Notes under the pieces: generated by a model
Told to the model about the DNA's origin: nothing
The model's input: the letters and a program-made list of their open reading frames with translations, nothing else
Databases searched by the model: none
Made by a program: the position numbers and the translations under genes
Assembly: GCA_051882195.1 (NCBI GenBank)
Contig: JBJERI010000034.1
Span: forward strand, 252-64,251
Length of the DNA stretch: 64,000 nucleotides
Reading direction: 5' to 3'
Source of the DNA: Ruminiclostridium sp.
GTDB taxonomy: Bacteria > Bacillota > Clostridia > Oscillospirales > Ruminococcaceae
Shown here: positions 1,850-48,987 of the stretch, piece after piece
Numbering within the stretch: position 1 is the first letter of the stretch
Layout of the letters: the number at the start of each line of letters is the position of its first letter

Positions 1850-1850
1850 G

Positions 1851-3397: not shown

Positions 3398-3422
3398 GGT
3401 AAAAATCCTTTCTCAATAAAAA

Positions 3423-3776
3423 TTATTCCGTTTCTTTTTTAGTGTAAAAAGCGTTGTTCTGCTGATAATAGCCGATAATGAATTTTCCCTGCTCGTCAAG
3501 GGAAAGGGTTGAGGGGAATTCATTTCCCATAAGCTCCATAACCTGACTTATGGCTTTCTGTGCGCCGTAATGACTTTTCTTTGACAAATGGGTCTGCGCA
3601 AGGGTCAGCAGTCTTGGGAAAACCGTTGACGGCTTTGAGCAGGCAGAAGCAAAGAACTTGTCCTTGATTGTGGTGTTAAGCTCGGTGTCGGCGGCATTTC
3701 TCTGCGCCATTTCCAGCGCCGCAAAAAGTCTTCCGCAAAGGTAAGCGGGGTTTTTGTTTTCTGTGTCCAGTGCCAT
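3423..3776 (-). CDS. cas11c: Probable Cas11c small subunit (117 aa) from an in-frame internal start within cas8c
   Basis: The minus strand reads cAGGAGGaaataaaaATG. This is a perfect SD (plus-strand coordinates 3785-3790) 8 nt upstream of an in-frame ATG (3774-3776), giving MALDTENKNPAYLCG... to the cas8c stop. Internal translation of Cas11 from I-C cas8c is established in other I-C systems. Confidence 0.55.
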   Translation of the reverse strand: MALDTENKNPAYLCGRLFAALEMAQRNAADTELNTTIKDKFFASACSKPSTVFPRLLTLAQTHLSKKSHYGAQKAISQVMELMGNEFPSTLSLDEQGKFIIGYYQQNNAFYTKKETE

Positions 3777-5213
3777 TTTTATTTCCTCCTGTTTTCCTGA
3801 AAGCCTTGCCTTTCGGTTAAGGCAGGCTTTGATTATTCCTATACGGGTGTCGTTTATTTTAACAAACCTGTTTTTGTCGGTGTCATTGTCCGTTTTAACC
3901 CGTCTTATCACCGTGCTTAACAGCGAATCGGGATATTTTGTGCCGTTGAGTATAGAGTAAAACAATGCCGACGAAAGGGGCGAGGGGACTTTATCGTTTG
4001 AGGATTTAGGCGAGATAAGCTCCTTTAAAATCCAATAAGTGCTTACCTGTCCTCCCTCCTTTACCGCCATATCGTGCTGATGCCGGGCAATATTTTCCAT
4101 TATATTGCCGAATTTGTCACGTACAATGAATTTCTGACAGATTCGGGAGCTGTTTGGGGTAAAGCCTGCAATATAGAAAATCACGTCCTCATTTATTTCG
4201 GCGGTATCTGCGGCTTTGCCCTGTTTTGCCTGCTCCATTGCCGATTTTAAAGCTTCATCAGCTTTTTTGTCCTCATCTCCGTTAAGCAGCGACATAAACA
4301 AGTCACATTCCTCGCTGTCGTCCTTTGACATTGCGAAAAAGACGATTGTGGTATCCTCAAGGTAAATATGGTGCTTTTTGTCGCTTAAGAGATAATTCAG
4401 AGCGGAGGTGTATTTTTTCATTGCCCTTTGGGAAATGTTGCTGTTGTAGGACTGGGTTTTTCCGTAGGATTCAAAAGCGGTATCGTTATACATAACAAGA
4501 GCGCCGCCTACCGAATTTCCGCCCATAATTCCCTTTATTTTCTCGTGTATTCGTGCAATGGGCAGTACCTCTCCCTCAACGGCGCACATGGCGCTTATGC
4601 CGCCCTCATCGTCGCCGTCCCCATTGCCGCTGTTTTCGGCAATATATTTTGCCATAAGCTCCTTGTCCTCGTGAAGCTTTATTTCGGGGTGTCCGTCAAG
4701 AGCAAAGCAGAAATAGCTGCCCGAATAGTCCTTGCCTATGGACAAAAGCTCTTTGTTTTGGCACTGCTCCTCGGGCTTCCACTTTTCAAGAAAATTGCGG
4801 TAGGCTTTAACGATTTCCGACTCCATTCCCTCACAGAAAGCAAGGTTTTCCTTTACAAAGGCTTCGTGGGATTTTTTCGCCTTGTCCGTTTTATCTTCGG
4901 GAGTAAAGCCCTCTTTTTCAAGGTTAAGACCGAATATGTACAGCGGTCGATGCTCGATTATGTTGGCGCAAACGCAGGTTTTCTGGGTTCTTTTGGGGAG
5001 AATTGCTGAAACGGGCTTAAGAACTGTTTTGGGTTTTCCCTTTTTCTGCGGAATTTCAACAGGCTCTCTTATGCTCTGTATTCCGCTTATTTCTCCCTCG
5101 GGGGTGAGAAAAATCATAAAGCTTACGTCCTGTACGGAAAGACAGTCGGGAATTTCCCCGCCGCCCTTGCCTTTCAGATAGTCGCTGTACTCGCAAAGCG
5201 CATTTATCAGCAT
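3423..5213 (-). CDS. cas8c: Cas8c (Csd1), type I-C large subunit
   Basis: 596 aa, located between cas5c and cas7 as in canonical I-C operons. Confidence 0.9.
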   Translation of the reverse strand: MLINALCEYSDYLKGKGGGEIPDCLSVQDVSFMIFLTPEGEISGIQSIREPVEIPQKKGKPKTVLKPVSAILPKRTQKTCVCANIIEHRPLYIFGLNLEKEGFTPEDKTDKAKKSHEAFVKENLAFCEGMESEIVKAYRNFLEKWKPEEQCQNKELLSIGKDYSGSYFCFALDGHPEIKLHEDKELMAKYIAENSGNGDGDDEGGISAMCAVEGEVLPIARIHEKIKGIMGGNSVGGALVMYNDTAFESYGKTQSYNSNISQRAMKKYTSALNYLLSDKKHHIYLEDTTIVFFAMSKDDSEECDLFMSLLNGDEDKKADEALKSAMEQAKQGKAADTAEINEDVIFYIAGFTPNSSRICQKFIVRDKFGNIMENIARHQHDMAVKEGGQVSTYWILKELISPKSSNDKVPSPLSSALFYSILNGTKYPDSLLSTVIRRVKTDNDTDKNRFVKINDTRIGIIKACLNRKARLSGKQEEIKMALDTENKNPAYLCGRLFAALEMAQRNAADTELNTTIKDKFFASACSKPSTVFPRLLTLAQTHLSKKSHYGAQKAISQVMELMGNEFPSTLSLDEQGKFIIGYYQQNNAFYTKKETE

Positions 5214-5929
5214 TTTATCCCCTCCCTGTACCTTGCCACGTCAATAACTCCGTCAACCATGCGGGGACGGTAATAAACCGCCTCCGCCCTGTCGGAATAA
5301 ACGGGATTTTCGGGGTCGTTGTTTATAGGTCTGCCACCGTCCTCAAAATTGAGCCGATACAGCATAAAGCCCAAATCGAACTCCCCCTTTAAGCTGTCCG
5401 AAACAAGGTTATAGTCAAAATCCTCCACAAGCTCAATATGCTTTACGGGAAACTCTCTGCACCCTAAGACGGGCTGTCTGAACTGCTGTCCGTTTCTGAG
5501 GCGGCGGAGAATTATATTGTAGTGCTTTTCCTCGTTTTCGTCCTCATGGTCGGACTTTATTCCCGTAAGCTCAAAGTGAAATTCAATGCCGTATTTCACG
5601 TTTTTGAGCAGCATTGCCGCTCGCTGGCTTCTGTCCTCTGCGGCGATTATCTGAGGGGAATCCCCCTTGCCGCTCATCTGGCCCTTTACCGCCGAAAGGA
5701 GCACCTTGCTTTTAACCTCGTTGCGCCTTATGTTCACAAACTCAATGGGACTGAACACCACGATTTTGTCGATAACATAGCGTATTGCAGGCTTCCAGTA
5801 AACGCTTTTCAGCAGCCCCTCCAGCGCTCCGGGGGTAGGCACGTCGTAGCTTACACGCTCGACTTTCATTTCGGGCCGTGTAAAGCAGGCGTAATCTCCG
5901 TCCACCATTATCTTAAATCCGTAAGCCAT
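5207..5929 (-). CDS. cas5: Cas5c (Cas5d), pre-crRNA endoribonuclease of I-C systems
   Basis: The ORF track starts at 5983. MAYGFKIMVDGDYACFTRPE at 5929 follows a GGAGTGAT SD and avoids overlap with cas3. That start gives 240 aa. Confidence 0.9.
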   Translation of the reverse strand: MAYGFKIMVDGDYACFTRPEMKVERVSYDVPTPGALEGLLKSVYWKPAIRYVIDKIVVFSPIEFVNIRRNEVKSKVLLSAVKGQMSGKGDSPQIIAAEDRSQRAAMLLKNVKYGIEFHFELTGIKSDHEDENEEKHYNIILRRLRNGQQFRQPVLGCREFPVKHIELVEDFDYNLVSDSLKGEFDLGFMLYRLNFEDGGRPINNDPENPVYSDRAEAVYYRPRMVDGVIDVARYREGIKC

Positions 5930-5939
5930 TTTATCACTC

Positions 5940-8084
5940 CTAACACATAATATAGTTATCATCACAGCTTTCGCTGTAAACAAAGCCTTTTTTGTTGCTG
6001 TACCTGCTCATATCCTCAAGCACAAGCACTCCGTTTATTTCTCTCACAATGCCCATTTTCAGTATATCGTCAAGCTGATAGCGGTAAACGGAAACGCTGT
6101 ACCTCTGAAGCGCCCGCATAACGGACATTTCCCCGTATTCAAGGCGCTGTACAAGCCCTTTGCTTTTCTCGTCCCTCGGAATAACAATGCCCCTTGTGTC
6201 AGCGCCGATAAGCTCAAAGCTTTCCGCATATTTTCTGAATGGGAGGGAATAAAGTCCCGTGTCGCCAGCCATGCGGTAAATGGAATTTTCCCCGATAAGA
6301 CTGTCGTTGAACTTAAAAATGCGGCTGTAATAATCCTCTATGACTTGGGGAGAGGTAATATCCCTTTCAAGGAGGGACTTGGCAATATTCGCTCTTATCC
6401 CCATATCCCCTTTTAGCCTGTTTTCCGTTTCAAAAACAAAAACCTTGCTGTTATCCCGTTTTCCCTCTCGGTTGCAGCGGCCGCCTGCCTGCAGAATGTT
6501 GTCAAGTCCTGCAAGCTCACGGAAAACCGCCTCAAAATCAAGGTCAACGCCTGCTTCCACAAGAGAGGTGGAAACCACCGTGATTTTCTCCTTGCCAAGA
6601 AGCGCCTTTATCTGCCCTATTACCTCTGAACGATGCTCCGGGGTCATATATGTAGAAAGGTGGAATTTCCTGCCGTTTAGCAGGTCGTAAACCTTATGGG
6701 CGGCTTTTCTTGTGTTTACCACAATAAGTGCGCTGTCGTACCTTTCAGCCTCCGCCGCAATCGCCTCGTAGTCCTTTTCCCCCATATTCACATAGCCGCA
6801 GTTTTTGAAAGCCTCAAAGCTGCTTTTGTCGGTTATCAGCTCCTTTACCTGCGTACCCGGCAGAAATTCACGGAAAAGGGGCTTGTAGTCGGGCATTGTT
6901 GCCGACAGAAACAGCGCCTTACAGCCGAAATATTCCGCAAGAAAGCCCACTCCCCTTATGCAAGGCTTAAGGTATTTCAGCGGCAAAAGGTGCGCCTCGT
7001 CAAAGACAATTACGCTGTCCGCCATATTGTGCAGCTTCCGCAGTCTGCTGCCTTTATAATGGTACAGGCTTTCAAAAAACTGCACCGTTGTGGTGATAAT
7101 AAAGGGGGAATCCCAGTTTTCGCAGTTTCGCTTTATTTTCTCCGCCGTGCCGCTGTTTTCGTCATTGCTGTCGGGAATAAAGTTGGAATGGTGCTGCAAA
7201 ATGTCCACGCTGTCCCCGAAAATTCCCTCGAAAATCTCTGCCGTCTGCTCGATAATGCTGGTATAGGGTATAACGTAGATAATGCGCTTTTTCCCCTCTT
7301 TTACCGCCGCTTTAAGGGCAATTTCCAGGCTGCACAGGGTTTTTCCGCTGCCCGTAGGCATATTGAGAATATTTATTCCCGAAAGGCTTTGGGCGTTTTC
7401 CACCGCCTGCAAAAGCAAATCCCGTCTTGCTTTTTTTACCTTGGTGTCCGCTTTGAAGGAGTTAAGCTTTTCCTCCACAGCAGCCAGCGCCTTTTCAAAA
7501 TCCCCCTTGCCTCCTCTTGACAGGTTTCCGTTGCAGAAACGCTCCGTGTCTATAAAATCTGCGTCCGTAAGGCAGGAGAAAACATATCTTGTGAAAAAGC
7601 AGTAAAGCTCGGTAAGCTCCTCCTTTGAGCCTGCTTTTTTAAGCAGCTCCATAAGCTCCTTTTCATCGGGGAGAGCAATTTCCCATTCCTCTTTATAGGC
7701 GGAATAATCCTCGCTTTTCCGCTTCATTCTTGCCCAAAGAGTGGGCATATCCTCGCTGTCGGCGGCGCTTCCCCCATCGGGCAGCCCCGAATGGTGTCCT
7801 GCAATGCAGTATTCAAGCATGGGTGCGGAAAGGCTGTTTTTGGGAAACAGCGCCTTACATTCCTTTGCGCCGCAGACCGAATGTTCGACCCTTGTGGGAC
7901 TGCCGTTTATGTGCTTCTGAAAGGCGTCGCTGTACTTTCCTATATCGTGCATCAAAGCGGCGGTTTCCGCAAGCTTCGTTAGCCGTCCTGCGGAAAATTC
8001 CTCCGCAAGCCTTGCCGTGCCCTCAAGATGTTCCTTTACCGACTGGATTTTTCCGTCCTCGGTTTTGTGAGCCGTAAATTCCAT
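5940..8084 (-). CDS. cas3: Cas3 HD nuclease / DEAH helicase
   Basis: 714 aa with an N-terminal HD motif (LMHDIGKYSDAFQKH), Walker A (NMPTGSGKT) and a DEAH box (VFDEAH). It is the first gene of the operon. Confidence 0.95.
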   Translation of the reverse strand: MEFTAHKTEDGKIQSVKEHLEGTARLAEEFSAGRLTKLAETAALMHDIGKYSDAFQKHINGSPTRVEHSVCGAKECKALFPKNSLSAPMLEYCIAGHHSGLPDGGSAADSEDMPTLWARMKRKSEDYSAYKEEWEIALPDEKELMELLKKAGSKEELTELYCFFTRYVFSCLTDADFIDTERFCNGNLSRGGKGDFEKALAAVEEKLNSFKADTKVKKARRDLLLQAVENAQSLSGINILNMPTGSGKTLCSLEIALKAAVKEGKKRIIYVIPYTSIIEQTAEIFEGIFGDSVDILQHHSNFIPDSNDENSGTAEKIKRNCENWDSPFIITTTVQFFESLYHYKGSRLRKLHNMADSVIVFDEAHLLPLKYLKPCIRGVGFLAEYFGCKALFLSATMPDYKPLFREFLPGTQVKELITDKSSFEAFKNCGYVNMGEKDYEAIAAEAERYDSALIVVNTRKAAHKVYDLLNGRKFHLSTYMTPEHRSEVIGQIKALLGKEKITVVSTSLVEAGVDLDFEAVFRELAGLDNILQAGGRCNREGKRDNSKVFVFETENRLKGDMGIRANIAKSLLERDITSPQVIEDYYSRIFKFNDSLIGENSIYRMAGDTGLYSLPFRKYAESFELIGADTRGIVIPRDEKSKGLVQRLEYGEMSVMRALQRYSVSVYRYQLDDILKMGIVREINGVLVLEDMSRYSNKKGFVYSESCDDNYIMC

Positions 8085-13050: not shown

Positions 13051-14121
13051 ATGACAAAGAATATTGCTGTAATCAAGGGCGACGGAATAGGCCCCGAAAT
13101 TGTCACCGAGGCAATGAAGGTGCTTGACAAGGTAGCTGAAAAATTCGGCCATACCTTCAACTACACCGAGGTTTTAATGGGCGGCTGCGCCATTGACGCA
13201 ACAGGCGAGCCGCTCCCAAAGGAAACGGTTGATATCTGCTTAAAGAGCGACTCCGTACTGCTTGGCGCAGTAGGCGGCCCGAAATGGGATAAGGGCGAGG
13301 GCAAGGCAAGACCGGAAGCGGGACTTCTTGGAATCCGCTCCGCACTTAAGCTTTTCGCAAACATCAGACCTGCAAAGCTGCTTAAGCCCCTTGCAGACGC
13401 CTGCCCCCTCAAAGAGGAAATCACAAACAAGGGTCTTGACCTTGTAATCGTCCGTGAGCTTATCGGCGGCGCTTATTTCGGCGCAAGAAAAACAGGCATT
13501 GAGGACGGACACAAAACCGCCCACGACGATATGAAGTACAGCGACTACGAAATCGAGCGTATCTGCCGTGTTGCATTCGATATGGCAAGAAAGCGCAGAG
13601 GCAAGGTAACAAGCGTTGACAAGGCAAACGTTCTTGACAGCTCACGTCTGTGGAGAGAAATTTCCCACAAGATTGCCGCTGAAAACCCCGACATTGAGTT
13701 TTCCGATATGCTGGTTGACAACACCGCAATGCAGCTTGTTCACAATCCTGCACAGTTTGACGTTATTGTAACGGAAAACCTGTTCGGCGACATTCTTTCC
13801 GATGAAGCAAGTATGATAACAGGCTCTCTCGGCATGATTCCGTCAGCAAGCCTTGGCGAAACAAGCCTTGGCTTATTCGAGCCCTGCCACGGCTCTGCTC
13901 CCGACATTGCAGGACAGGATAAGGCAAATCCTATTGCCACAATTCTCTCCGCAGCAATGATGCTGAGATATTCTTTCGATATGGCAAAGGAAGCTGACGC
14001 AATCGAAGCGGCAGTTGACAAGGTGCTGGAGGACGGTTACAGAACAGGCGACATTATGAGCGAGGGTATGAAGCAGGTTGGCTGCAAGGAAATGGGTACG
14101 CTTATTGCTGAAAGAGTCTGA
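13051..14121 (+). CDS. leuB: 3-isopropylmalate dehydrogenase
   Basis: 356 aa with IAVIKGDGIGPEI and NLFGDILSDEASMITGSLGM motifs. Confidence 0.95.
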   Translation: MTKNIAVIKGDGIGPEIVTEAMKVLDKVAEKFGHTFNYTEVLMGGCAIDATGEPLPKETVDICLKSDSVLLGAVGGPKWDKGEGKARPEAGLLGIRSALKLFANIRPAKLLKPLADACPLKEEITNKGLDLVIVRELIGGAYFGARKTGIEDGHKTAHDDMKYSDYEIERICRVAFDMARKRRGKVTSVDKANVLDSSRLWREISHKIAAENPDIEFSDMLVDNTAMQLVHNPAQFDVIVTENLFGDILSDEASMITGSLGMIPSASLGETSLGLFEPCHGSAPDIAGQDKANPIATILSAAMMLRYSFDMAKEADAIEAAVDKVLEDGYRTGDIMSEGMKQVGCKEMGTLIAERV

Positions 14122-14132
14122 CGAAACTGTAA

Positions 14133-14153
14133 GGGGGCGTTGCCCCCTTTTTT
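14133..14153 (+). terminator. Intrinsic terminator after leuB
   Basis: GGGGGC-gtt-GCCCCC followed by TTTTTT, 12 nt after the leuB stop. Confidence 0.8.
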
Positions 14154-14209
14154 GTTTACTCGCCTTTCGCCCATAGCGAGGGAAAATCAAAAGGGGGCGA
14201 GCAGCCCCC
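14133..14209. repeat. Solo arm module of the GGGGGC-N5-GCCCCC hairpin-chain repeat family
   Basis: Hairpin 14133-14147, then ...CATAGCGAGGGAAAATCAAAA, then hairpin GGGGGCGAGCAGCCCCC (14193-14209). It is collinear with the right arm end at 31555-31609. Confidence 0.7.
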
Positions 14210-14286
14210 AAAATTCACAAAACCTATTGCAAATCCCACAGGAATATGCTATACTTAAATAAATAAAACCAAACGGAGGAATTACT

Positions 14287-14430
14287 ATGAAGCACATTAC
14301 AACTGTAAATAAGGCAAACTTAAAGGAAACTGCTGCCAAGGGCGGCTGCGGCAAGTGCCAGACTTCCTGCCAGTCTGCCTGCAAGACTTCCTGCACAGTA
14401 GCAAACCAGAAGTGCGAAGCTGACAAGTAA
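14287..14430 (+). CDS. SCIFF six-cysteine RiPP precursor peptide (ranthipeptide family), 47 aa. It is absent from the ORF track.
   Basis: GGAGG SD, then ATG. Translation: MKHITTVNKANLKETAAKGGCGKCQTSCQSACKTSCTVANQKCEADK. It contains the hallmark GGCG.CQTSCQSACKTSCTV core with 6 Cys and lies directly upstream of a radical SAM/SPASM enzyme. Confidence 0.9.
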   Translation: MKHITTVNKANLKETAAKGGCGKCQTSCQSACKTSCTVANQKCEADK

Positions 14431-14471
14431 GCCTGCACGGGTTTACCTTTAATAATCGGCAAATCAAAGCA

Positions 14472-14508
14472 AGGGCGGAAGTTGTCTGAACTCCGCCCTG
14501 TACTTTTG
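14472..14508 (+). terminator. Stem-loop between precursor and maturase, possibly a partial terminator or attenuator
   Basis: GGGCGGA-N12-TCCGCCC followed by a weak T tract (gtacTTTTg). This arrangement is common between RiPP precursor and modifying genes. Confidence 0.45.
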
Positions 14509-14585
14509 CTGAATGATATGCCGGAAACGGCTGCCAATAAGTAATAATTAAGTTAAATTATACAAAAAGTAAAGAGGATAAAGGA

Positions 14586-15974
14586 ATGGATAAAAGAATA
14601 CACAAATACAAGCAGGGCGAGCATTACATTGTTCTTGACGTAAACAGCGGCGGCGTGCATATTGTGGACAAAATCGTCTATGATATGCTTGACTTTGTTT
14701 CTGCGCCAATGGCGGAGGAAATGCCTGCTGATTTATGCGAAAAAATGAGCGGATACGACAAGGCGGAGGTTGAGGAGTGCTATTCGGAGCTGCTGGAGCT
14801 TTACAAGGCGAAAATGCTTTTCACCGAGGACGAGTACAAAAAATACGCCGATATGACCCTTAATGCGCCTATAAAGGCAATGTGCCTCCACGTTTCCCAC
14901 GACTGCAATCTGCGCTGCGAGTACTGCTTTGCGGAAACGGGAGATTTTGGCACGGGCAGAAAAATTATGCCTGTTGAGGTGGGAAAAAAGGCAATTGATT
15001 TCCTTATAGAAAAGTCGGTTGGCAGAGAAAACCTTGAGCTTGACTTTTTCGGCGGCGAGCCTTTAATGGCGTGGGATACCGTTGTTGAAACGGTGAAGTA
15101 CGCAAGAAGCGTCGAAAAGCAGCACGGCAAGAATTTCCGCTTTACAATCACCACAAACGGAATGCTCCTTGACGACGAGAAAATCGACTACATAAACAGA
15201 GAAATGTCCAACTGCGTTTTAAGCCTTGACGGACGCAAGGAGGTAAACGACAGGATACGCTACACTCCCAATCACAAGGGCTGCTACGATATAATTATGC
15301 CAAAGTACAAAAAGCTTGTGGCAGGCAGAAAAAACGAGGAAAGAACCGATTATTACGTCCGCGGCACTTTCACAAAGTATAATCTTGATTTTGCCAACGA
15401 CGTGCTGCACATTGCGGAGGAGGGCTTCGACCAGTTAAGCGTTGAGCCTGTGGTTACCGATCCGAAATTGCCTTATGCCCTTACGGAAGCAGATTTGCCT
15501 GCAATTTTCGCCGAATACGACCGCCTTTTCGACATTATGGCAAAGGGCGACAAAAAGTTCAACTTCTTCCATTTTATGATAGATTTGCAGCAGGGCCCCT
15601 GTGCAATTAAGCGTTTAAGAGGCTGCGGCTGCGGCAACGAATATGTTGCGGTAACGCCCGACGGCGATATTTATCCCTGTCACCAGTTTGTCGGTATGGA
15701 GGACTGGAAAATGGGCAACATATTTGAGGGTACTGTTAATAAGGAAATCAAGGATTATTTCGCAAAAACCCACATTTATTCAAAGCAGGGCTGCTCGGAA
15801 TGCTGGGCAAGATTTTACTGCTCCGGCGGCTGCAACGCAAACTCCTTCCAGTACGAGGGTGACGTGCAGAAGCCAAACAAGCTTGCCTGCGAAATGCAGA
15901 AAAAGCGTATCGAATGTGGAATCGCCCTTAATGCGCTGAAGCTGCAGAGGAAAAATAAAGAAAATCAACAATAA
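14586..15974 (+). CDS. SCIFF radical SAM maturase (thioether-forming, SPASM domain)
   Basis: 462 aa with CNLRCEYCF (CxxxCxxC) and a C-terminal SPASM Cys cluster (CGCGNEY, CSECWARFYCSGGCNANS). It is adjacent to the SCIFF peptide. Confidence 0.92.
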   Translation: MDKRIHKYKQGEHYIVLDVNSGGVHIVDKIVYDMLDFVSAPMAEEMPADLCEKMSGYDKAEVEECYSELLELYKAKMLFTEDEYKKYADMTLNAPIKAMCLHVSHDCNLRCEYCFAETGDFGTGRKIMPVEVGKKAIDFLIEKSVGRENLELDFFGGEPLMAWDTVVETVKYARSVEKQHGKNFRFTITTNGMLLDDEKIDYINREMSNCVLSLDGRKEVNDRIRYTPNHKGCYDIIMPKYKKLVAGRKNEERTDYYVRGTFTKYNLDFANDVLHIAEEGFDQLSVEPVVTDPKLPYALTEADLPAIFAEYDRLFDIMAKGDKKFNFFHFMIDLQQGPCAIKRLRGCGCGNEYVAVTPDGDIYPCHQFVGMEDWKMGNIFEGTVNKEIKDYFAKTHIYSKQGCSECWARFYCSGGCNANSFQYEGDVQKPNKLACEMQKKRIECGIALNALKLQRKNKENQQ

Positions 15975-24368: not shown

Positions 24369-24397
24369 GAAGGTATGAAAAATGCGTGATTGTGCGG

Positions 24398-24690
24398 TTA
24401 AAAAGCAGTTATTCAGGACCGCCGAGCAAGCCTGTTTTAAATCATACCAAGGTAAAGGCTCGGCGGAATTGCAAGGGGGGGAGCCTCCCCAATGCGTTTT
24501 TAAAAAGCACTTGTTCCGCCCCCGCCGAGCAAGCCTGTTTTAAATCATACCAAGGTAAAGGCTCGACGGAAAAGCCAAAGGCGGCATAACAATTTAATTA
24601 AAAATCACCTGTTCCGCCCCCGCCGAGCAAGCCTGTTTTAAATAAACAAAAGTGAAAGGCTCGGCGGAACAGCAGGGGGGAGCATCCCCC
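24398..24690. repeat. Tandem array of three ~100-nt units, each carrying a CCGCCGAGC...GCTCGGCGG hairpin with a ~30-nt loop
   Basis: Units start at 24398, 24500 and 24598 (TTAAAAAGCA / TTAAAAATCA). Hairpins are at 24419-24466, 24522-24569 and 24620-24667. Loops 1 and 2 are identical (AAGCCTGTTTTAAATCATACCAAGGTAAAG). Units 1 and 3 end in GGGGGGAGC(C/A)TCCCC hairpins. Confidence 0.8.
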
Positions 24691-26928: not shown

Positions 26929-27045
26929 GGGGGCTGCTCGCCCCATAGGGGTAGTCCCTCGCTATTGTCGAAAGGGGCTGCCCCCTTTCCACCAACTTAT
27001 AAGCCACAAAACCACGCTCAGGGGTTCAAGGGGGCGGCAGTCCCC
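26929..27045. repeat. Solo arm of the hairpin-chain repeat family
   Basis: GGGGGCTGCTCGCCCC (26929-26944), then CCCTCGCTATTGTCGAAAGG, then GGGGCTGCCCC, then a CCAACTTATAAGCCACAAAACC spacer, then GGGGGCGGCAGTCCCC (27030-27045). It is collinear with 30613-30730. Confidence 0.7.
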
Positions 27046-28445
27046 TCAATTGCCTTTTCCAGCGTCCTGTAAAGCATATCCACGTCAATGGGCTTTGCAA
27101 TATGTCCGTTCATTCCTGCGGACAACGACGCCGTTATATCCTCCGCATAGGTGTTGGCGGTCATTGCGTAAATGGGGATTTCCCCTGCGTCATTGCGGTC
27201 AAGACTGCGGATTTTCCTTGCGGCGTCCAGTCCGCCCATTTCAGGCATTTGCAGATCCATCAGAATACAGCAATAAGTGCGCGGCGGATTGCTTTCAAAC
27301 AGCTTTACCGCTTCAATTCCGTTTTCGGCGGCGTCAACGCCCATATTCACCAGTTCAAGCAAATCCCTTGCTATCTCCGCATTGAACTCATTATCCTCAG
27401 CAAGAATTACCTTATATCCCGTAAAATCGTATTGTTTTTCACTGACCGCAGGAGCGTTAATCGCATTTTTCTCGCCGCCTGTTTTTCCCGTTAAGCCAAA
27501 GGGCAGATCAACGGTAAAGGTTGTTCCCTTGCCATTTTGCGACCTTACGGAAATTGCGCCCTGCATCATATCCACAAGGTTTTTGGCAATGGACAAGCCA
27601 AGTCCGCTGCCCGTATGCTTTTTGGCGGAGTCGCTGCTCTCCTGCTCAAAGGGCTTGAACACTCTGCCAAGCATATCGTCCGACATTCCGCAGCCCGTAT
27701 CCGCTACCGCAAACCGCAGGTATGCGTCATTGCCGCTGCGGTTTATTTCGCTTACGGTTGAATCAAGTCTGCGCATAAACTCGTCGTTATGCTTTCCCGT
27801 AATGAAATAGAAAGGCTCGGAGCAGAAACAGCTTAAAATCCTGCATTCGGGGTCCACAACAAGAGCGCCTATTACAATTCCGTCCGCCGCTCCTTTTTTC
27901 AGTGCGTCGTAACATTCGGTATAGGAATCGTACTGGCAGGGAATATAGGAAAAGCCCGATTTTCCCGCAAATTCCGCCAGCTTTGTGTTGAAGTAGTTGC
28001 CTTTGAGCATTGCCACTCTCATTCCCTCAAAGGAGGAAAAATCGTTGTAGAAAAATCTGCCGTCCTCTGCACGGCAGCAAAGAGCGCCCGTTTCAATTCC
28101 CGCAACAAAGTCGCTGAAAAGATATTTCTGCTCACGGTCGGCGTTTTTCTTTACATGGCACACCAAATCAAGCTGACCATTATCCAGCATTTCCATTATC
28201 TCGTCAAGAGTTCCGCCTACATATTCGTACTGCCAGTTGTTCCGCTTGGCAATTTCGTCAAGGAGCACCGTTTCATAGCCCTTTACGTTTCCCTCCTCAT
28301 CAAAAGTGAATATGGAGCCGTTTGCTACATAGCCTACTCTGATTATTTCGGGGGCGCTTTCTGCGGAAACAGGTATGTAAAGCATTACAAAGCTAAGGGC
28401 AATAAGCAGACAGATTATTCTCTGTAAAATATTTTTATGAAGCAT
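27018..28445 (-). CDS. Solute-binding domain fused directly to the C-terminal half of HATPase_c plus a REC domain; an apparently internally deleted hybrid histidine kinase
   Basis: Signal peptide plus an SBP_bac_3-like domain (IIRVGYVANGSIF...) runs straight into ...LRFAVADTGCGMS (G1 box) and GSGLGLSI (G2). A receiver follows (ILAEDNEFN...ILMDLQMPEMGG...AMTAN...KP). No TM segment, H-box or N-box is visible. Confidence 0.75.
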   Translation of the reverse strand: MLHKNILQRIICLLIALSFVMLYIPVSAESAPEIIRVGYVANGSIFTFDEEGNVKGYETVLLDEIAKRNNWQYEYVGGTLDEIMEMLDNGQLDLVCHVKKNADREQKYLFSDFVAGIETGALCCRAEDGRFFYNDFSSFEGMRVAMLKGNYFNTKLAEFAGKSGFSYIPCQYDSYTECYDALKKGAADGIVIGALVVDPECRILSCFCSEPFYFITGKHNDEFMRRLDSTVSEINRSGNDAYLRFAVADTGCGMSDDMLGRVFKPFEQESSDSAKKHTGSGLGLSIAKNLVDMMQGAISVRSQNGKGTTFTVDLPFGLTGKTGGEKNAINAPAVSEKQYDFTGYKVILAEDNEFNAEIARDLLELVNMGVDAAENGIEAVKLFESNPPRTYCCILMDLQMPEMGGLDAARKIRSLDRNDAGEIPIYAMTANTYAEDITASLSAGMNGHIAKPIDVDMLYRTLEKAIEGTAAPLNP

Positions 28446-30610: not shown

Positions 30611-30962
30611 TTGGGGGCTGCTCGCCCCCTTTTGATTTGCCCTCGCTATTGTCGAAAGGGGTTGCCCTTTTGGACCCGTTTTGTGTTTGTTTGGATTTGT
30701 AAGTTGGTTTTGAGGGGGCTGCTCGCCCCCTTTTTTACCCCTCGTTTTTTGTGTTTGTTGTGGTTTATATGTTGGTTGAAAGGGGGCTACTCGCCCCCTC
30801 AAAACCAACATAAAAATCAAAACCCACACCAAGCACAAACATAATAAAAGAACAAAAAAAGCAAAAACATCTCCACTTCCACCAACAACTTTAAAAAAGC
30901 CACAACACCGACCGCAATTCCAAAAAACAAAATCCTTTTTAGAAAAGTGCCGCCAAGCACTA

Positions 30963-31071
30963 CACCCCTTGAGACTTGCGAAGCAAGTCTCTCAAGCCCC
31001 TCGCGGCAATTGAGCGAGTGCCTTTCTTTCCCCATTTCTTTGGGCAATCAAAGAAATGGGCGAGGGGTTAT
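30963..31071. other. Conserved three-hairpin core, copy A (candidate structured RNA or DNA element)
   Basis: CACCCCTTGAGACTTGCGAAGCAAGTCTC...CCCATTTCTTTGGGCAATCAAAGAAATGGGCGAGGGGTTAT. Confidence 0.4.
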
Positions 31072-31284
31072 CGCTCCGCTATAACAAGAAATAAGGCTAT
31101 CAAGGGGGCGAGCAGCCCCCTCAAAACCAACATAAAAATCAAAACCCACACCAAGCACAAACATAATAAAAGAACAAAAAAAGCAAAAACATCTCCACTT
31201 CCACCAACAACTTTAAAAAAGCCACAACACCGACCGCAATTTCAAAAAACAAAATCCTTTTTAGAAAAGTGCCGCCAAGCACTA

Positions 31285-31396
31285 CACCCCTTGAAACTCG
31301 CCAAAGGCGAGTTTCACAAAGCCCCTCGCGGCGAATGAGCGAGTGCATTTCTTTCCCCATTTCTTTGGGCAATCAAAGAAATGGGCGAGGGGTTAT
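31285..31396. other. Conserved three-hairpin core, copy B
   Basis: H1 at 31293-31315, H2 at 31325-31343, H3 at 31356-31385. The alternative closing helix is 31322-31329 with 31385-31392. Confidence 0.4.
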
Positions 31397-31609
31397 CGAT
31401 ACCTTATAATCAAATCCAACGCAATCAAGGGGGCGAGCAGCCCCCTTTAAACCAAGTCGAAAATTACAAAAACACAAAACGGAATAAAAAGGGGTGAGCA
31501 GCCCTCTTTTAAACCAACCCCAAAAACCAAACCAAACTCAAAACGGGGTCAAAAGGGGCAACCCCTTTCGACTATAGCGAGGGCAAATCAAAAAGGGGCG
31601 AGCAGCCCC

Positions 31610-32722
31610 TTAATTATTTTTAACTATTCGTTTCGCATAGACCTCGCAGGTGGCCGCATTCATTGTAATAACATAATAGTCTCCGTTAAGGTATGTAAAG
31701 ATAAGGTCGCACAGTCGCACATCGTCGCCGAATTCCTCCGGTGAATGAGCCTCGCCGTCAATGCCTATAAAGGTTTCGTAGGGGGCATACAGCTTGTATT
31801 CGGGAATTTCGTCAACGAAGTAGGTGGTATCGTCAATGTACATAAGGGCAACCGTCTGGCATATTTCAATGCTGAACAGACCGTTGTTTATGAGAATCTG
31901 GTTAAGTCCCTGTGTGCGGATTGCCTTTGCGTCAACCTTGCCCGTGTAATACTCGTAAACCTCGTCCCCGATAACCATACGGACAAAAGGCTCTGCCTCC
32001 TTGCCGTCGGATATTACCGCATACAAATCCGACTCAATGCGCAGGAAAGGCTGACCCGAGCGGTCGAAAAAGGTAACGCTTTCCGCAACTGCGGTATAGC
32101 CCACGTGCTTCTGCTGCCACTTTTTGAAGGCTTTTTTCTCCTTTTCAAGCTGACTGTCGCTTACCTTGGTGAACTTCATATTGTTGAACTGCTCAATAAG
32201 GCTGTTTACATATTCCTCGTTTATAAAAAGCGCCGAGTCGTCATGGTAGTATTTGCTCAGCGAAACCGTTTCGGGAGTGTATGAAGCGGTTAGAATTTTT
32301 GCAGGATCAAGCCTTGGAGTATAGGTTTCGGGACCCGACTTTGTGGTTTCGGCGGGAGTGGTAGTGGCTGCTGTGGTTGCTTCGGTGGGAGGAGCGGTTA
32401 CCGCCTCGGGAGTGGTGGTAACGGCGATTGCCGTTGTGGTTTCGGTAACGGGAGCGGTTGTCGTAACCGGAGCAGTGGTGGTAACAGCCGTTGTTGTGGC
32501 TGCGGTAGTAGTGGTTGTTTTCGGCGTGGTGGTAACGGCGGTAGTAGTTGCGGAGGTTTGGGCAGATTCGGTGAATGGTGGCTCGCTTTCGGCAGTCGAC
32601 GTTTCCGTATGGGAATCCGTGAGAACAGGCTCCGTCTGCTGTTCTGTATTATCAGTGCAGGCGGTGAAAAGCAAAGCGATTGCCGTTATCAGAGCCAATA
32701 TATATAATCTGATTTTAGCCAT
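31610..32722 (-). CDS. Lipoprotein of unknown function with a Thr/Ala/Pro-rich linker
   Basis: Lipobox LLFTAC after a signal peptide. About 110 aa of T/A/P low complexity is followed by a globular C-terminal domain. Confidence 0.75.
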   Translation of the reverse strand: MAKIRLYILALITAIALLFTACTDNTEQQTEPVLTDSHTETSTAESEPPFTESAQTSATTTAVTTTPKTTTTTAATTTAVTTTAPVTTTAPVTETTTAIAVTTTPEAVTAPPTEATTAATTTPAETTKSGPETYTPRLDPAKILTASYTPETVSLSKYYHDDSALFINEEYVNSLIEQFNNMKFTKVSDSQLEKEKKAFKKWQQKHVGYTAVAESVTFFDRSGQPFLRIESDLYAVISDGKEAEPFVRMVIGDEVYEYYTGKVDAKAIRTQGLNQILINNGLFSIEICQTVALMYIDDTTYFVDEIPEYKLYAPYETFIGIDGEAHSPEEFGDDVRLCDLIFTYLNGDYYVITMNAATCEVYAKRIVKNN

Positions 32723-39817: not shown

Positions 39818-39823
39818 ATTGTT

Positions 39824-40345
39824 GGGGGCTGCTCGCTCCCTTTTTTTACCCCCGTTTTGTGTTTGTTTGTATTTGTGAGTTGGTGGAGAGGGGGCTACTC
39901 GCCCCCTTTCAACCAGCATAAAAACAAAGCAAAAAAAGCAACAACATTACCACTTCCGCCAACAACTTTAAAAAAGCATAAACCCCTATTGCAGTTACCA
40001 AAAACAAAATTCTTCTACACCAACATTTGACAACCATAAACACCCCTTGAAACTCGCAAAGCGAGTTTCACAAAGCCTCTCGCGGCGCATGAGCGAGTGC
40101 ATTTCTTTCCCCATTTCTTTGGGCAATCAAAGAAATGGGCGAGGGGTTATTGCTCCACTATAACTAAATCCAAGGCTATCAAGGGGGCGAGTAGCCCCCT
40201 TTTAACCAACTTAAAAACCCAAACCAACATAAAACGGTGGGGCAAAAAAAGGGGGCTGCTCGCCCCCTTACAACCAACTTACGAAAACATCAAACAAAAA
40301 AGGGTTTGAAAAGGGTACTCCCTTTTCGCTCGGCGGCGTGAAGCC
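39824..40345. repeat. Second large copy of the hairpin-chain foldback repeat, carrying a single core unit
   Basis: Hairpins at 39824-39840, 39890-39906, 40183-40199 and 40251-40267. The unit 39907-40199 is homologous to 30799-31120 and 31121-31445. Confidence 0.8.
40041..40150. other. Conserved three-hairpin core, copy C
   Basis: CACCCCTTGAAACTCGCAAAGCGAGTTTC...CCCATTTCTTTGGGCAATCAAAGAAATGGGCGAGGGGTTAT. Confidence 0.4.
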
Positions 40346-40349
40346 CCCA

Positions 40350-47441: not shown

Positions 47442-48266
47442 ATGAACGCTGAAAAAAAGAAAGCCATAGAAATTGTAGTTGATGCAAGCATAAAAAGCTT
47501 TGCAGCAGGACTGACAAGCAGATATGAAAAGGAATTAAACTGTGACGACGGCGTTATAAATATGAAGAAAAACAACTGCTTCATTGCGGAATTGGGCGAA
47601 GAATTTATGTTCTATTCTGCCTTTGTTCGAAGCTTTGACAGCAGCTTTGGAAATATCCTTGAACAGATAGGAAACGACATAGCAAAATTATCCTACGAAG
47701 TCAAAGGAGATATTACCTCATTTATCCTGCCTGACCAGACGCAGCGGATTGCCTCTGTGCTTGACAGTTATCTTGACCACACGTCAACTCCGTCAATATC
47801 TCACTACTCAAATTTTGATGTTATTTATCCTAAAAATACGGTAAGCTTTGAAAGAACTCACGTTACCGATAATTATTTTTATAACCCCAAAACCAATGAG
47901 CATTATATAATTGAGCTTAAAGCGTCCGGAGATTTGGACAATAAGAAAGCAAGAGCAGAAAAGTCCGCATTATTGGAAGAATATTTTTTGCTGAAAAATT
48001 CTCTAAAGGACGATAAGACCGCCAAGATATACATATATTTTGGCACGGCGTATAATAAATACGGAGAGAATAATTATTGGAAGCAGGAAAGAGTAAGACA
48101 GTTTTTCGCAGAAGATGAACTGCTTATCGGCAAGGATTATTGGAATTTTGTATGCAACGATAAAGATGGTTTTGATATCATTTTCAATCAATATAAAATT
48201 TCAGCAGGGAAAATAAAAGAAGCGTTGGAGAAAATAAAAAAGATGTATTTTGATAATGGAAATTAA
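47442..48266 (+). CDS. Putative type II restriction endonuclease (PD-(D/E)xK-like)
   Basis: 274 aa and AT-rich. Candidate catalytic motif ...VTDNYFY...HYIIELKASGD (D...ExK). It overlaps the downstream methyltransferase gene by 11 nt. The family assignment (possibly TdeIII-like, from memory) is unverified. Confidence 0.6.
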   Translation: MNAEKKKAIEIVVDASIKSFAAGLTSRYEKELNCDDGVINMKKNNCFIAELGEEFMFYSAFVRSFDSSFGNILEQIGNDIAKLSYEVKGDITSFILPDQTQRIASVLDSYLDHTSTPSISHYSNFDVIYPKNTVSFERTHVTDNYFYNPKTNEHYIIELKASGDLDNKKARAEKSALLEEYFLLKNSLKDDKTAKIYIYFGTAYNKYGENNYWKQERVRQFFAEDELLIGKDYWNFVCNDKDGFDIIFNQYKISAGKIKEALEKIKKMYFDNGN

Positions 48267-48987
48267 AGTAAACGAAATCGACAAAAAACTGCTGGTTAAT
48301 TCCGATTGTTTTTCTGTTTTAAAAAATCTTCCCGATAAGTCAGTTGATTTAATTCTGACAGACCCGCCCTATAACCTTGCAAAGTACAGTACAGGAAATA
48401 TGTCCTTTGATTGGCGCTCAGATATCAACAACGATGTTGCGGAATGGGATTTAGTTGAACTTAAGCCAACTGATTTGGCGGAAGAATTTAAAAGAATTCT
48501 GTCGCCAAAAGGAAATATATTTATATTTTGCTCTTATAATCTGATTGGCGAATATCACAAGGCTTTCGACCCCATATTCGACACATTTCAGTTTATGGTA
48601 TGGCATAAAACAAACCCTGTTCCAAATTTCAGAAAGTCATCGTTTCTCAACAGCTGTGAGCTGATTGTTTCTTGTTGGAATAAAGGACACACTTGGAATT
48701 TTACAAATCAAAAGGATATGCACAATTTTATTGAAAGCGGTATTTGCATGGGAAAGGAAAGAATAAAGGACAAAAACGGTAAAAATCTTCACCCAACACA
48801 AAAGCCTGTTTCAGTTTTAAAAAAAATAATCGAAATAGCGTCTAACCAAAACGATATTGTGCTTGACTGCTTTAACGGAGTAGGAAGTACCGGAGAGGCG
48901 GCGTTAAGTCTTAATCGGAGATATATCGGAATTGAAATAGACAAGCAGTATTTTGACGCAACAGCTGAGCGCTTAAAAAATTATTAG
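48256..48987 (+). CDS. Beta-class DNA amino-methyltransferase (N6-adenine or N4-cytosine)
   Basis: Motif IV LILTDPPYNL precedes motif I DCFNGVGSTGEAA (circularly permuted beta order). There is also an HPTQKP motif. 243 aa. Confidence 0.9.
   Translation: MEIKVNEIDKKLLVNSDCFSVLKNLPDKSVDLILTDPPYNLAKYSTGNMSFDWRSDINNDVAEWDLVELKPTDLAEEFKRILSPKGNIFIFCSYNLIGEYHKAFDPIFDTFQFMVWHKTNPVPNFRKSSFLNSCELIVSCWNKGHTWNFTNQKDMHNFIESGICMGKERIKDKNGKNLHPTQKPVSVLKKIIEIASNQNDIVLDCFNGVGSTGEAALSLNRRYIGIEIDKQYFDATAERLKNY

What the first reader, a model, noticed from the sequence alone, without database searches (positions are those of the whole stretch)
30611..31609. A 1-kb hairpin-chain foldback element fills a convergent intergenic gap and has no transposase or conserved ORF
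The whole 999-nt space between the YolD-like gene stop (30610) and the lipoprotein gene stop (31610) is one structured repeat.

- Arms: the left arm (30613-30798) and right arm (31429-31609) are imperfect inverted copies of each other.
- Arm composition: each arm is a chain of GGGGGC-N5-GCCCCC hairpins (loop CTGCTCG on the left, its complement CGAGCAG on the right). G/T-rich spacers separate them on the left and the complementary A/C-rich spacers on the right.
- Interior: between the arms lie two tandem 322-nt units (30799-31120 and 31121-31445). Their first ~165 nt are nearly identical, with a single difference noticed by eye.
- Dual role of the ends: the outermost hairpins, each followed by a T-run, double as intrinsic terminators for both flanking genes.

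I count about 13 copies of this hairpin type in the window, all intergenic. The architecture resembles a non-autonomous foldback or MITE-like element, or an expanded REP/BIME cluster. I do not recognise the sequence family.
Basis: seen in the sequence. Interest (0 to 1): 0.8.

Follow-up and report, generated by a model that had tools for sequence, protein, structure and literature searches.

The report
Hairpin-module repeat filling a convergent gene gap
The 1-kb gap is a real, strongly self-folding copy of a modular repeat family that so far turns up only in one uncultured pig-gut Clostridia lineage; it most likely acts as stacked transcription stop signals for the genes on either side and changes far faster than they do, which makes it a new family of a familiar kind of bacterial repeat.

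Summary
Region 30611-31609 fills the gap between the YolD-like stop and the lipoprotein stop.

- **Arms.** They align in inverted orientation at 80% identity over 189 nt (E 1e-41).
- **Units.** Two ~322-nt units lie in tandem. Outside the hairpin loop they show one difference in the first 174 nt.
- **Hairpin.** GGGGGC-N5-GCCCCC occurs 15 times in the window against 0.12 expected.

New findings:

- The element is built from three modules: terminal module A, a 58-nt module B (G/T tail plus hairpin) in tandem, and a ~305-nt unit.
- The unit is an A/C-rich stretch followed by a three-hairpin junction supported by compensatory changes.
- A one-unit paralogue lies at 39822-40348. Short copies lie at 14120-14211 and 26929-27049.
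- In close relatives the full form is a longer palindrome, over 1 kb, with two inverted units around a unique centre.
- Between strains whose GH130 proteins are identical, flanking DNA is 95-98% identical but the element only 66%. Copies are mosaics.
- More distant relatives have plain terminators downstream of the same genes.

I found no conserved ORF, no Rfam, plasmid or phage match, and no transposase in the window.

Verdict: a new BOX/BIME-like mosaic repeat family, probably serving as inward-facing terminators. How it spreads is unknown.

The parts
30613..30675 (+). Terminal module A, left. It holds hairpin GGGGGCTGCTCGCCCCC (30613-30629) followed by TTTTGATTT, the conserved stretch CCCTCGCTATTGTCGAAAGG, and a small second hairpin GGGGTTGCCC followed by TTTTGG.
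   Evidence: 91% complementary to 31541-31609 (I1). The same module occurs at 14163-14211(-), 26929-26988(+) and in relatives L036, L037, L043 and L047. Scored terminator-like; folds at -13.8 kcal/mol.
30676..30733 (+). Module B, copy 1: a G/T-rich 35-nt tail plus the hairpin at 30714-30730, followed by TTTTTT.
   Evidence: nhmmer with the module-B profile, E 4e-16; direct repeat family D6.
30747..30801 (+). Module B, copy 2. Its hairpin (30782-30798, loop CTACTCG) is the junction with unit 1.
   Evidence: nhmmer E 5e-16. Together with the inverted B tail at 30799-30834 it forms an ~85-nt hairpin of -45.9 kcal/mol, z = -8.7 (I7, 101).
30799..31103 (+). Unit 1. A/C-rich stretch 30799-30960 (51% A, 29% C). 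Structured domain 30964-31068: closing stem 30964-30970 with 31062-31068; H1 30971-30991; H2 31000-31004 with 31014-31018; H3 31031-31042 with 31049-31060.
   Evidence: Alignment of units; base composition and motif positions; fold z = -5.5; pair counts.
31104..31120 (-). Hairpin GGGGGCGAGCAGCCCCC between unit 1 and unit 2. It is the 3' boundary hairpin of unit 1 and the head of an inverted module B (31100-31155).
31121..31428 (+). Unit 2. A/C-rich stretch 31121-31282. Structured domain 31286-31393: closing stem 31286-31292 with 31387-31393; H1 31293-31315; H2 31325-31329 with 31339-31343; H3 31356-31367 with 31374-31385.
   Evidence: (fold z = -6.8).
31426..31482 (-). Module B, right arm, copy 1 (hairpin 31429-31445).
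   Evidence: nhmmer E 1.6e-14.
31488..31546 (-). Module B, right arm, copy 2, degenerate hairpin (31490-31506). On the minus strand it is followed by TTTTTATT.
   Evidence: nhmmer E 2.6e-11; terminator-like on the minus strand.
31547..31610 (-). Terminal module A, right: small hairpin near 31545-31565 and outer hairpin 31594-31610, which abuts the lipoprotein stop codon.
   Evidence: (I1). Identical in the independent contig L050.
39822..40348 (+). Paralogous element with a single unit, lying between the ECF-S component gene stop and the GH130 gene's own terminator: hairpin, module B, unit 3 (39907-40182), two inverted B modules, and a degenerate module A.
   Evidence: 75-77% identical to the finding over 410-440 nt; sequence; flanking genes.
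14120..14211 (-). Short family copy: module A only, plus a hairpin with a T-run that closes the isopropylmalate/isocitrate dehydrogenase-family gene.
   Evidence: (94% over 49 nt).
26929..27049 (+). Short family copy: module A plus one degenerate inverted module B, in a convergent gap.

Best explanation
The element is one copy of a modular, non-coding, interspersed repeat family, found so far only in this Clostridia lineage. In layout and behaviour it is analogous to pneumococcal BOX elements and enterobacterial BIMEs.

**Build.** Each copy has terminal module A, a variable tandem array of the 58-nt module B, and a ~305-nt unit.

**How it changes (partly shown).** Copies sit just beyond gene 3' ends. 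They are reshuffled quickly by homologous recombination or gene conversion between copies, and by unequal exchange or slippage at the identical 17-nt hairpins. The tandem unit pair at 30799-31428 is one such local duplication, later partly converted in its 3' half.

**Why it is tolerated, and probably useful (inferred).** In each arm the hairpins are followed by T-runs in the direction read by the incoming gene. The element therefore presents a stack of two to three intrinsic-terminator-like hairpins to transcription from either side.

**Shown:** anatomy, family membership, structure conservation, hypervariability between strains, and a plain terminator instead of the element downstream of the same genes in more distant relatives.

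**Inferred:** terminator function and the recombination mechanism.

**Unknown:** how new copies reach new sites.
For: **Modules and copies**
- define the modules. There are 10 full B modules in the window, all in the two large loci, and 2-4 in tandem per arm in relatives.
- Units: three in the window and at least eight more in related contigs.

**Position**
- All window copies are intergenic and lie at gene 3' ends.

**Terminator polarity**
- 9 terminator-like sites against 2.9 expected. They lie on the plus strand in the left arm and the minus strand in the right arm.
- Outer hairpins fold at -10.5 to -13.8 kcal/mol and are followed by U tracts.

**Fast turnover at a fixed site**
- In strains with an identical GH130 protein, gene DNA is 97.7% identical, upstream genes 94.9% and the native terminator 94%.
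- The element there is 66% identical, with module gains and losses, yet has the same boundary gttgtt|GGGG.
- The same pattern holds at the YolD site (L036) and the pgsA site (L003 against L037).

**Mosaicism**
- Segments are shared among units in different combinations.
- L047 carries a hybrid H2 whose two arms come from different variants.

**More distant relatives**
- L032 (YolD 73% identical), L040 (PgsA 84%) and L041 (PgsA 75%) have plain terminators downstream of these genes.

**No coding capacity**
-.

**Published parallels**
- BOX elements vary between strains in boxB number, and SPRITE repeats resemble terminators at gene 3' ends (PMC3049150).
- REP/BIME show extensive differences between strains, and their palindromes are preserved by complementary mutations (PMC2817692).
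Against: - No expression or termination data exist.
- Genome-wide copy number is unknown, because only 64 kb plus short contigs were available.
- The unit's three hairpins show compensatory changes and a 37-nt invariant core. That is more constraint than a mere terminator stack needs, and it hints at a specific RNA or protein-binding role.
- The innermost hairpins lack T-runs.
- No empty site within the species was recovered, so neither mobility nor its absence is shown.
- Recombination alone does not explain how copies arrived at unrelated loci.
Confidence: 0.58

Rival explanations
1. It is a MITE or foldback transposon: a deletion derivative of an insertion sequence, moved in trans by a transposase that recognises module A as a terminal inverted repeat. 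The internal units and the centre would be remnants of the parent element.
For: - Long terminal inverted repeats: 69 nt at 91% complementarity.
- Arms made of sub-repeats, as in foldback elements.
- Relatives carry a larger palindromic form with a unique ~100-nt centre that could be a remnant of cargo.
- The element is missing downstream of the same genes in more distant relatives.
- The same outer boundary is kept in two strains.
Against: - No target-site duplication is visible at any of the copies.
- Module A is not always terminal. In L045 it is preceded by a B tail.
- Short copies consist of a single module A.
- About 40 window genes scanned against Pfam include no transposase.
- No plasmid or phage match.
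- GC content is 45%, close to the window's 47%, so it is not AT-rich.
Confidence: 0.14
2. It is a REP/BIME-type system. The 17-nt hairpin would be a REP recognised as single-stranded DNA by a single-copy RAYT or other HUH enzyme encoded elsewhere in the genome, and that enzyme would seed and amplify the modules.
For: - A short extragenic GC-rich palindrome is strongly over-represented: 15 against 0.12 expected.
- Hairpins are arranged in mosaic clusters with conserved segments between them.
- Turnover outpaces the neighbouring genes, and palindromes are kept by paired changes. Both are reported for REP/BIME (PMC2817692).
Against: - Hairpins within an arm share one orientation instead of alternating.
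- There is no conserved GTAG-type motif 5' of the stem. GTAG occurs only inside the loop of one hairpin variant.
- No RAYT lies in the window.
- RAYT systems have been described mainly in Proteobacteria; this point rests on background knowledge and on the species list.
Confidence: 0.1
3. The ~305-nt unit is a multi-copy gene, or a 3'UTR-borne module, for a structured RNA: an A/C-rich leader plus a three-hairpin junction. The hairpin arrays would insulate it from outside transcription.
For: - Across 12 copies, 98.2% of cells are paired against 41-59% in slid controls.
- 6 pairs and 13 cells carry changes on both sides, reached by 0-1 of 500 shuffles.
- Fold z-scores range from -4 to -7 in complete copies; the CRISPR-fused L003 copy gives -2.3.
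- A 37-nt core is invariant among copies that are otherwise about 75% identical.
- The motif TTGAT(A/T)-N14-TATAA is conserved while the spacer varies.
- In both window loci the units share the orientation of the upstream gene.
Against: - No sigma-70-like promoter is found in or next to the units or in the centre.
- The 14-nt spacing of the conserved hexamers is too short for a standard promoter.
- The structure is equally good on both strands.
- Paired changes in palindromes can arise from DNA-level correction and recombination without selection. One copy has a broken hybrid H2.
- No Rfam match.
- The copies are few and closely related.
Confidence: 0.13
4. It is an assembly artefact, or a decayed CRISPR array or trailer.
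For: - In MAG contig L003 the last, degenerate type I-C repeat runs directly into the 3' half of a unit.
- The same repeat forms the array at window 53-352.
- The tandem unit pair is seen only in this assembly.
Against: - Independent contigs reproduce the right arm (L050, about 240 nt) and the first ~30 nt at the left end (L001, L002) of the finding, and about 200 nt of the GH130-side arm of the second element (L049).
- In a strain whose PgsA is 97% identical (L037), the unit at the same site is intact and no array adjoins it. The L003 junction is therefore strain-specific. It lies at a 5-nt microhomology, GAGTT.
- The family hairpin has a 5' G-run then a C-run, whereas the CRISPR repeat hairpin has a C-run then a G-run. 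Neither can be derived from the other by inversion.
- The element has no match to the leader or the spacers.
Confidence: 0.03

Closest known systems
BOX elements of Streptococcus pneumoniae and S. suis (boxA - boxB(n) - boxC)
   Same: - Modular, non-coding, intergenic repeats in a Firmicute.
- Terminal modules that pair with each other enclose a short module repeated in tandem a variable number of times.
- Highly folded if transcribed.
- Length varies between strains through gain and loss of the middle module.
- Enriched downstream of genes.
- No proven transposase.

(PMC3049150; compare.)
   Different: - No sequence relationship was shown or expected.
- Here the B arrays occur on both sides in inverted orientation.
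- They enclose an extra ~305-nt unit with its own three-hairpin domain.
- The full form exceeds 1 kb, against roughly 100-300 nt for BOX.
- The B hairpin plus T-run looks like a terminator.
REP / BIME (bacterial interspersed mosaic elements) and REPINs with RAYT transposases
   Same: - Short GC-rich extragenic palindromes at high local density.
- Clustered in mosaics with conserved motifs between the palindromes.
- Species-specific.
- Evolve faster than neighbouring genes.
- Palindromes kept by complementary changes.
- Proposed roles in termination and mRNA 3'-end protection.

(PMC2817692.)
   Different: - Hairpins do not alternate in orientation within an arm.
- There is no GTAG-like 5' motif.
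- No RAYT was found, though only 64 kb could be searched.
- A large structured unit is present.
- The host is a Clostridia lineage.
SPRITE (pneumococcal Rho-independent-terminator-like element)
   Same: An interspersed repeat whose hairpin plus U-rich tract resembles a terminator. It lies close to gene 3' ends and is thought to have been co-opted as a terminator (PMC3049150).
   Different: SPRITE is a single hairpin unit. Here, terminator-like hairpins are stacked in arrays facing inward from both ends of a composite element.
MITEs (for example Correia, RUP, Nezha) and eukaryotic foldback elements
   Same: - Terminal inverted repeats.
- Strong secondary structure.
- Non-coding.
- Multi-copy.
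- Foldback-like arms built from sub-repeats.
   Different: - No target-site duplication.
- No cognate insertion sequence identified.
- Not AT-rich.
- Ends are not sharply defined.
- Size of 0.5-1.3 kb.

Membership tests
REP/BIME | Short imperfect palindrome, extragenic, present in many copies | tested here: met
   A 17-nt hairpin with 15 matches against 0.12 expected, all intergenic. Whole-genome copy number could not be measured.
REP/BIME | [quoted passage not shown] | tested here: not met
   Judged by the B tails, every module in an arm has the same orientation, and orientation flips only between arms. Hairpin loops agree in both arms of the finding (+,+,+ on the left; -,-,-,- on the right); the one exception is a flipped loop at 40251 in the second element.
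REP/BIME | A cognate RAYT (IS200/IS605-like Y1 transposase) gene flanked by the REPs | not testable with these tools
   None among about 40 window genes scanned against Pfam. The rest of the genome was not available.
REP/BIME | Conserved GTAG-type tetranucleotide next to the stem | tested here: not met
   Sequences flanking the stem are T-rich or tail sequence. GTAG occurs only inside the loop of the CTACTCG variant.
BOX-like modular repeat | Two terminal modules that pair with each other, enclosing a variable tandem array of a short middle module | tested here: met
   Module A at both ends is 91% complementary. Module B occurs 2-4 times in tandem per arm, and the number differs between strains.
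BOX-like modular repeat | Sequence homology to streptococcal boxA, boxB or boxC | not tested
   No BOX models were available. The resemblance is one of architecture only.
MITE | Terminal inverted repeats | tested here: met
   (I1).
MITE | Target-site duplication flanking the element | tested here: inconclusive
   No direct repeat was seen by eye at the ends of the copies. No empty site within the species was recovered to define exact ends.
MITE | A cognate autonomous insertion sequence with matching ends | not testable with these tools
   None in the window. No match in plasmid or phage collections.
MITE | Presence/absence polymorphism | tested here: inconclusive
   More distant relatives (protein identity 73-84%) have plain terminators instead of the element downstream of the same genes, with different neighbours where visible. 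The element is present, but reshuffled, in every same-species contig recovered.
Intrinsic (Rho-independent) terminator | GC-rich hairpin followed directly by a T-run, downstream of a gene on the same strand | tested here: met
   Pattern scan; -10.5 to -13.8 kcal/mol. Function was not tested.
Known RNA families (Rfam 15) | A match at or above a family's gathering score | tested here: not met
   Only two tRNAs in the window. Only sub-threshold chance hits in the element and in relatives.
CRISPR array or remnant | Repeats homologous to the resident type I-C repeat, separated by unique spacers | tested here: not met
   The I-C repeat matches only 53-352. The element has no match to the array or leader.

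The most novel reading that the evidence does not exclude
The ~305-nt unit is not passive repeat DNA. It would be a new functional module: either a multi-copy structured RNA, or the folded single-strand substrate of an undiscovered hairpin-specific recombinase. Inward-facing terminator arrays would insulate it. The same hairpin-directed chemistry would also explain the junction seen in one strain, where the last type I-C CRISPR repeat is joined to the unit exactly inside hairpin H1.
Probability: 0.1. Interest if true: 0.6.

Novelty: new variant of a known kind. Interest (0 to 1): 0.38.

Why it matters
- **New family.** It adds a previously undescribed modular repeat family from an uncultured pig-gut Clostridia lineage, a group in which interspersed repeats are poorly catalogued.
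- **Fast change at fixed sites.** The repeats turn over far faster than the genes around them. That makes them useful strain markers. Contigs in every short-read assembly examined end at these hairpins, so the repeats probably contribute to the fragmentation of those assemblies.
- **Testable design.** Terminator-like hairpins stacked to face inward from both ends form a clear, testable case of repeat DNA co-opted to end convergent transcription.
- **Open question.** The conserved three-hairpin domain of the unit is unexplained and could be a small new RNA or a protein-binding element.
- **Scale.** This is an incremental finding, not a new principle.

Tried and rejected
1. **Metagenome scan.** The pattern TTTGGGCAATCAAAGAAATGGG gave 26 hits. 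All lie inside one conserved protein-coding gene (not identified) of unrelated organisms.
2. **Genome scan.** A 23-mer from the unit core hit only one MAG, at three contig ends.
3. **Small hydrophobic protein or toxin.** The minus-strand 76/77-aa ORFs are not conserved in frame. A protein search found only three pseudo-ORFs called inside other copies. These were used to fetch more copies.
4. **CRISPR remnant or trailer.** Rejected as a general explanation, because L037 has an intact unit at the same site and the hairpin polarity differs.
5. **Promoters.** None was detected in the unit or the centre. TTGCAA-N18-TATAAC in the centre and TTGAT(A/T)-N14-TATAA next to the hairpin do not fit sigma-70 rules.
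6. **Library searches.** Rfam at gathering and at E-value thresholds, plasmid and phage blastn, an IMG/VR scan, and a literature search for the sequences found nothing relevant.
7. **Strand of a putative RNA.** G-U against A-C pairs are too few to decide.
8. **Empty site within the species.** Not obtained. Short-read contigs end at the hairpins.
Full report
**1. The observation**

Region 30611-31609 is exactly the gap between two convergent ORFs. The 140-aa ORF ends at 30610. Its homologues are named YolD-like or carry PF08863, and it follows a Y-family polymerase gene. The 370-aa Thr-rich ORF on the minus strand ends at 31610 and has a lipoprotein-like N-terminus.

- **Arms.** A formal alignment supports them. 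30614-30799 against the reverse complement of 31428-31609 gives 80.4% identity over 189 columns, E 1e-41. The outer 69 nt are 91% complementary.
- **Hairpin.** GGGGGCTGCTCGCCCCC has 15 matches with up to 3 mismatches in the window, against 0.12 expected.
- **Units.** The two interior units are 91% identical over 354 nt. Outside the hairpin loop they differ at one position in the first 174 nt (30920 against 31242). After that they diverge by about 15%.
- **Folding.** As a single strand the element folds at -237.7 kcal/mol, z = -19.8.
- **Independent support.** Logan contigs from SRR30616768 reproduce the right arm as far as H3 of unit 2, about 240 nt, and the first ~30 nt at the left end. No independent contig spans the tandem pair.

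**2. Anatomy**

The element is built from three modules.

*Module A* is about 63 nt: the hairpin with a T-run, the conserved stretch CCCTCGCTATTGTCGAAAGG, and a small second hairpin. It caps both ends. It also occurs alone at 14163-14211 and at 26929-26988.

*Module B* is 58 nt: the tail CCGTTTTGTGTTTGTTTG..ATTT.TAAGTTGGTT.. followed by the hairpin. It is a well-defined repeat. A profile finds 10 full copies in the window, all in the two large loci, and 2-4 tandem copies per arm in relatives.

*The unit* is about 305 nt.
- It starts with an inverted B tail.
- It continues as a 160-nt stretch that is 51% A and 29% C.
- It ends in a ~105-nt domain with a short closing stem and three hairpins (H1, H2, H3), then TATAA(T/C), 14 variable nt, ATCAA and a hairpin.

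A second element at 39822-40348 has the same plan with one unit.

Within each arm the hairpins are followed by T-runs in the direction read from the adjacent gene. The scan finds 9 terminator-like sites against 2.9 expected: plus strand on the left, minus strand on the right. The outer hairpins fold at -12 to -14 kcal/mol.

**3. Not coding, and not a known family**

- The minus-strand ORFs inside the units are frame-shifted or stopped in other copies.
- Rfam gives nothing at gathering score and only chance-level hits below it.
- Plasmid and phage collections have no match.
- IMG/VR holds one unrelated lone hairpin.
- The sequences do not occur in the paper library.
- About 40 window genes are ordinary chromosomal genes, with no transposase, RAYT or integrase.

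**4. Relatives**

The window comes from an NCBI MAG labelled Ruminiclostridium sp.. Contigs with identical flanking proteins come from pig gut metagenomes.

The unit core occurs in only one other genome among 185,579 species representatives: an uncultured Clostridia MAG, at three contig ends. Using flanking proteins and pseudo-ORFs as handles, I recovered eight more unit copies. Three things follow.

*First, the family's fuller form is a palindrome.* It runs: gene stop, A, B, B, hairpin, inverted unit, a unique ~100-nt centre, unit, hairpin, B arrays, A (L042 with L043, and L037). The window copies lack that centre. The one-unit and tandem-unit elements here are therefore derived arrangements.

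*Second, the element is hypervariable at a fixed site.*
- In strains with an identical GH130 protein, the gene is 97.7% identical in DNA, the two upstream genes 94.9% and the native terminator 94%.
- The element, starting at the same gttgtt|GGGG boundary, is 66% identical, with modules gained, lost and replaced.
- The same holds after YolD (L036) and after pgsA (L003 against L037).
- Unit alignments show segments shared in different combinations.
- One copy has an H2 whose two arms come from different variants. This points to recombination among copies.

*Third, more distant relatives have ordinary terminators downstream of the same genes.* This is seen at 73-84% protein identity.

**5. Structure conservation**

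On 12 copies, the closing stem, H1-H3 and the 3' hairpin are paired in 98.2% of cells, against 41-59% when the partners are slid.
- Six pairs carry changes on both sides: three in H1, two in H2 and one in H3.
- This level is reached by 0-1 of 500 shuffles.
- Folds have z-scores of -4 to -7 on both strands.

This is real constraint on pairing. It does not, however, tell RNA from DNA. Palindromes in repeats can also be kept symmetrical by DNA-level processes, as noted for REPs in PMC2817692.

**6. Interpretation**

The best-supported reading is a mosaic hairpin-module repeat, found so far only in this lineage.
- In layout it is closest to BOX (A-Bn-C with variable Bn; PMC3049150).
- In behaviour it is closest to REP/BIME: species-specific, fast-evolving, with palindromes preserved.
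- It appears to be co-opted, or at least tolerated, as a stack of terminators facing inward from both ends of a convergent gap.
- The tandem unit pair is most simply explained by unequal exchange between the identical hairpins that bound a unit, followed by conversion of one 3' half from another copy.

How copies reach new loci is not known. The tests for MITE (target-site duplication, cognate insertion sequence) and for REP/RAYT (alternating orientation, GTAG motif, RAYT gene) were either not met or could not be run.

**7. The CRISPR lead**

In MAG contig L003 a type I-C array ends in a degenerate repeat that runs straight into the 3' half of a unit. The repeat is identical to the array at window 53-352, which lies next to cas1-cas3 at 827-8084. 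The junction lies inside H1, at the shared pentamer GAGTT.

In L037, whose PgsA is 97% identical, the unit at that site is intact and no array adjoins it. I therefore treat the junction as a strain-specific rearrangement. It is recorded as a lead, not as part of the mechanism.

**8. Verdict**

This is a new variant of a known kind of bacterial repeat, of moderate interest. The main open questions are the role of the unit's conserved three-hairpin domain and the mechanism of spread.

Noticed in passing
window 53-352 (-), 527-8084 (-): A type I-C CRISPR-Cas locus. The array (repeat GTCGCCCCCCGCGTGGGGGTGTGAGTTGAAAT) is cut by the window start. It is followed by a ~170-nt leader and then cas2, cas1, cas4, cas7, cas8c (Csd1), cas5d and cas3.
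   Followed up: partly
L003 1-390 (MAG CAMDZU010000039.1): The last, degenerate I-C repeat (GTCGCCCCCCGCACGGGGGCATGAGTTTCAC) is joined, inside hairpin H1 at the pentamer GAGTT, to the 3' half of a family unit. The unit is followed by the hairpin chain and pgsA. In strain L037 the same site holds an intact unit and no array.
   Followed up: partly
window 24397-24690: A second, unrelated structured repeat lies in another convergent gap: three tandem ~100-nt copies. Each carries the hairpin CCGCCGAGC...GCTCGGCGG, and GGGGGGAGC(C/A)TCCCC hairpins lie between and after them. It has no Rfam match.
   Followed up: partly
window 47442-48987: A TdeIII-type restriction endonuclease gene and an N6/N4 DNA methylase gene are inserted between pheS and pheT. 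GC content dips locally to 0.35, which suggests recent acquisition.
   Followed up: no
window 14287-15974: A short Cys-rich peptide ORF (MKHITTVNKANLKETAAKGGCGKCQTSCQSACKTSCTV...) is followed by a radical SAM/SPASM enzyme gene. The pair looks like a SCIFF peptide and its maturase. A short family copy lies just upstream.
   Followed up: no
window 31394-31428, 31069-31103, 40148-40182 (minus-strand reading) and all related copies: Between the unit's structured domain and its 3' hairpin, the motif TTGAT(A/T)-N14-TATAA(T/G/C) is conserved while the 14-nt spacer varies freely. The spacing is too short for a sigma-70 promoter. Its purpose is unknown.
   Followed up: partly
L042 395-500; L037 1120-1230; L043 835-886: A unique ~100-nt centre (…CTTATGTTAATCAGAAACGAG…) lies between the two inverted units of the full-length family form. 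It is absent from the window and does not pass the promoter scan.
   Followed up: partly
L001, L002, L033-L036, L038, L048, L049 contig ends: Short-read contigs of this organism repeatedly end within a few dozen bases of a family hairpin. The repeat family therefore probably contributes to fragmenting assemblies of this lineage.
   Followed up: no
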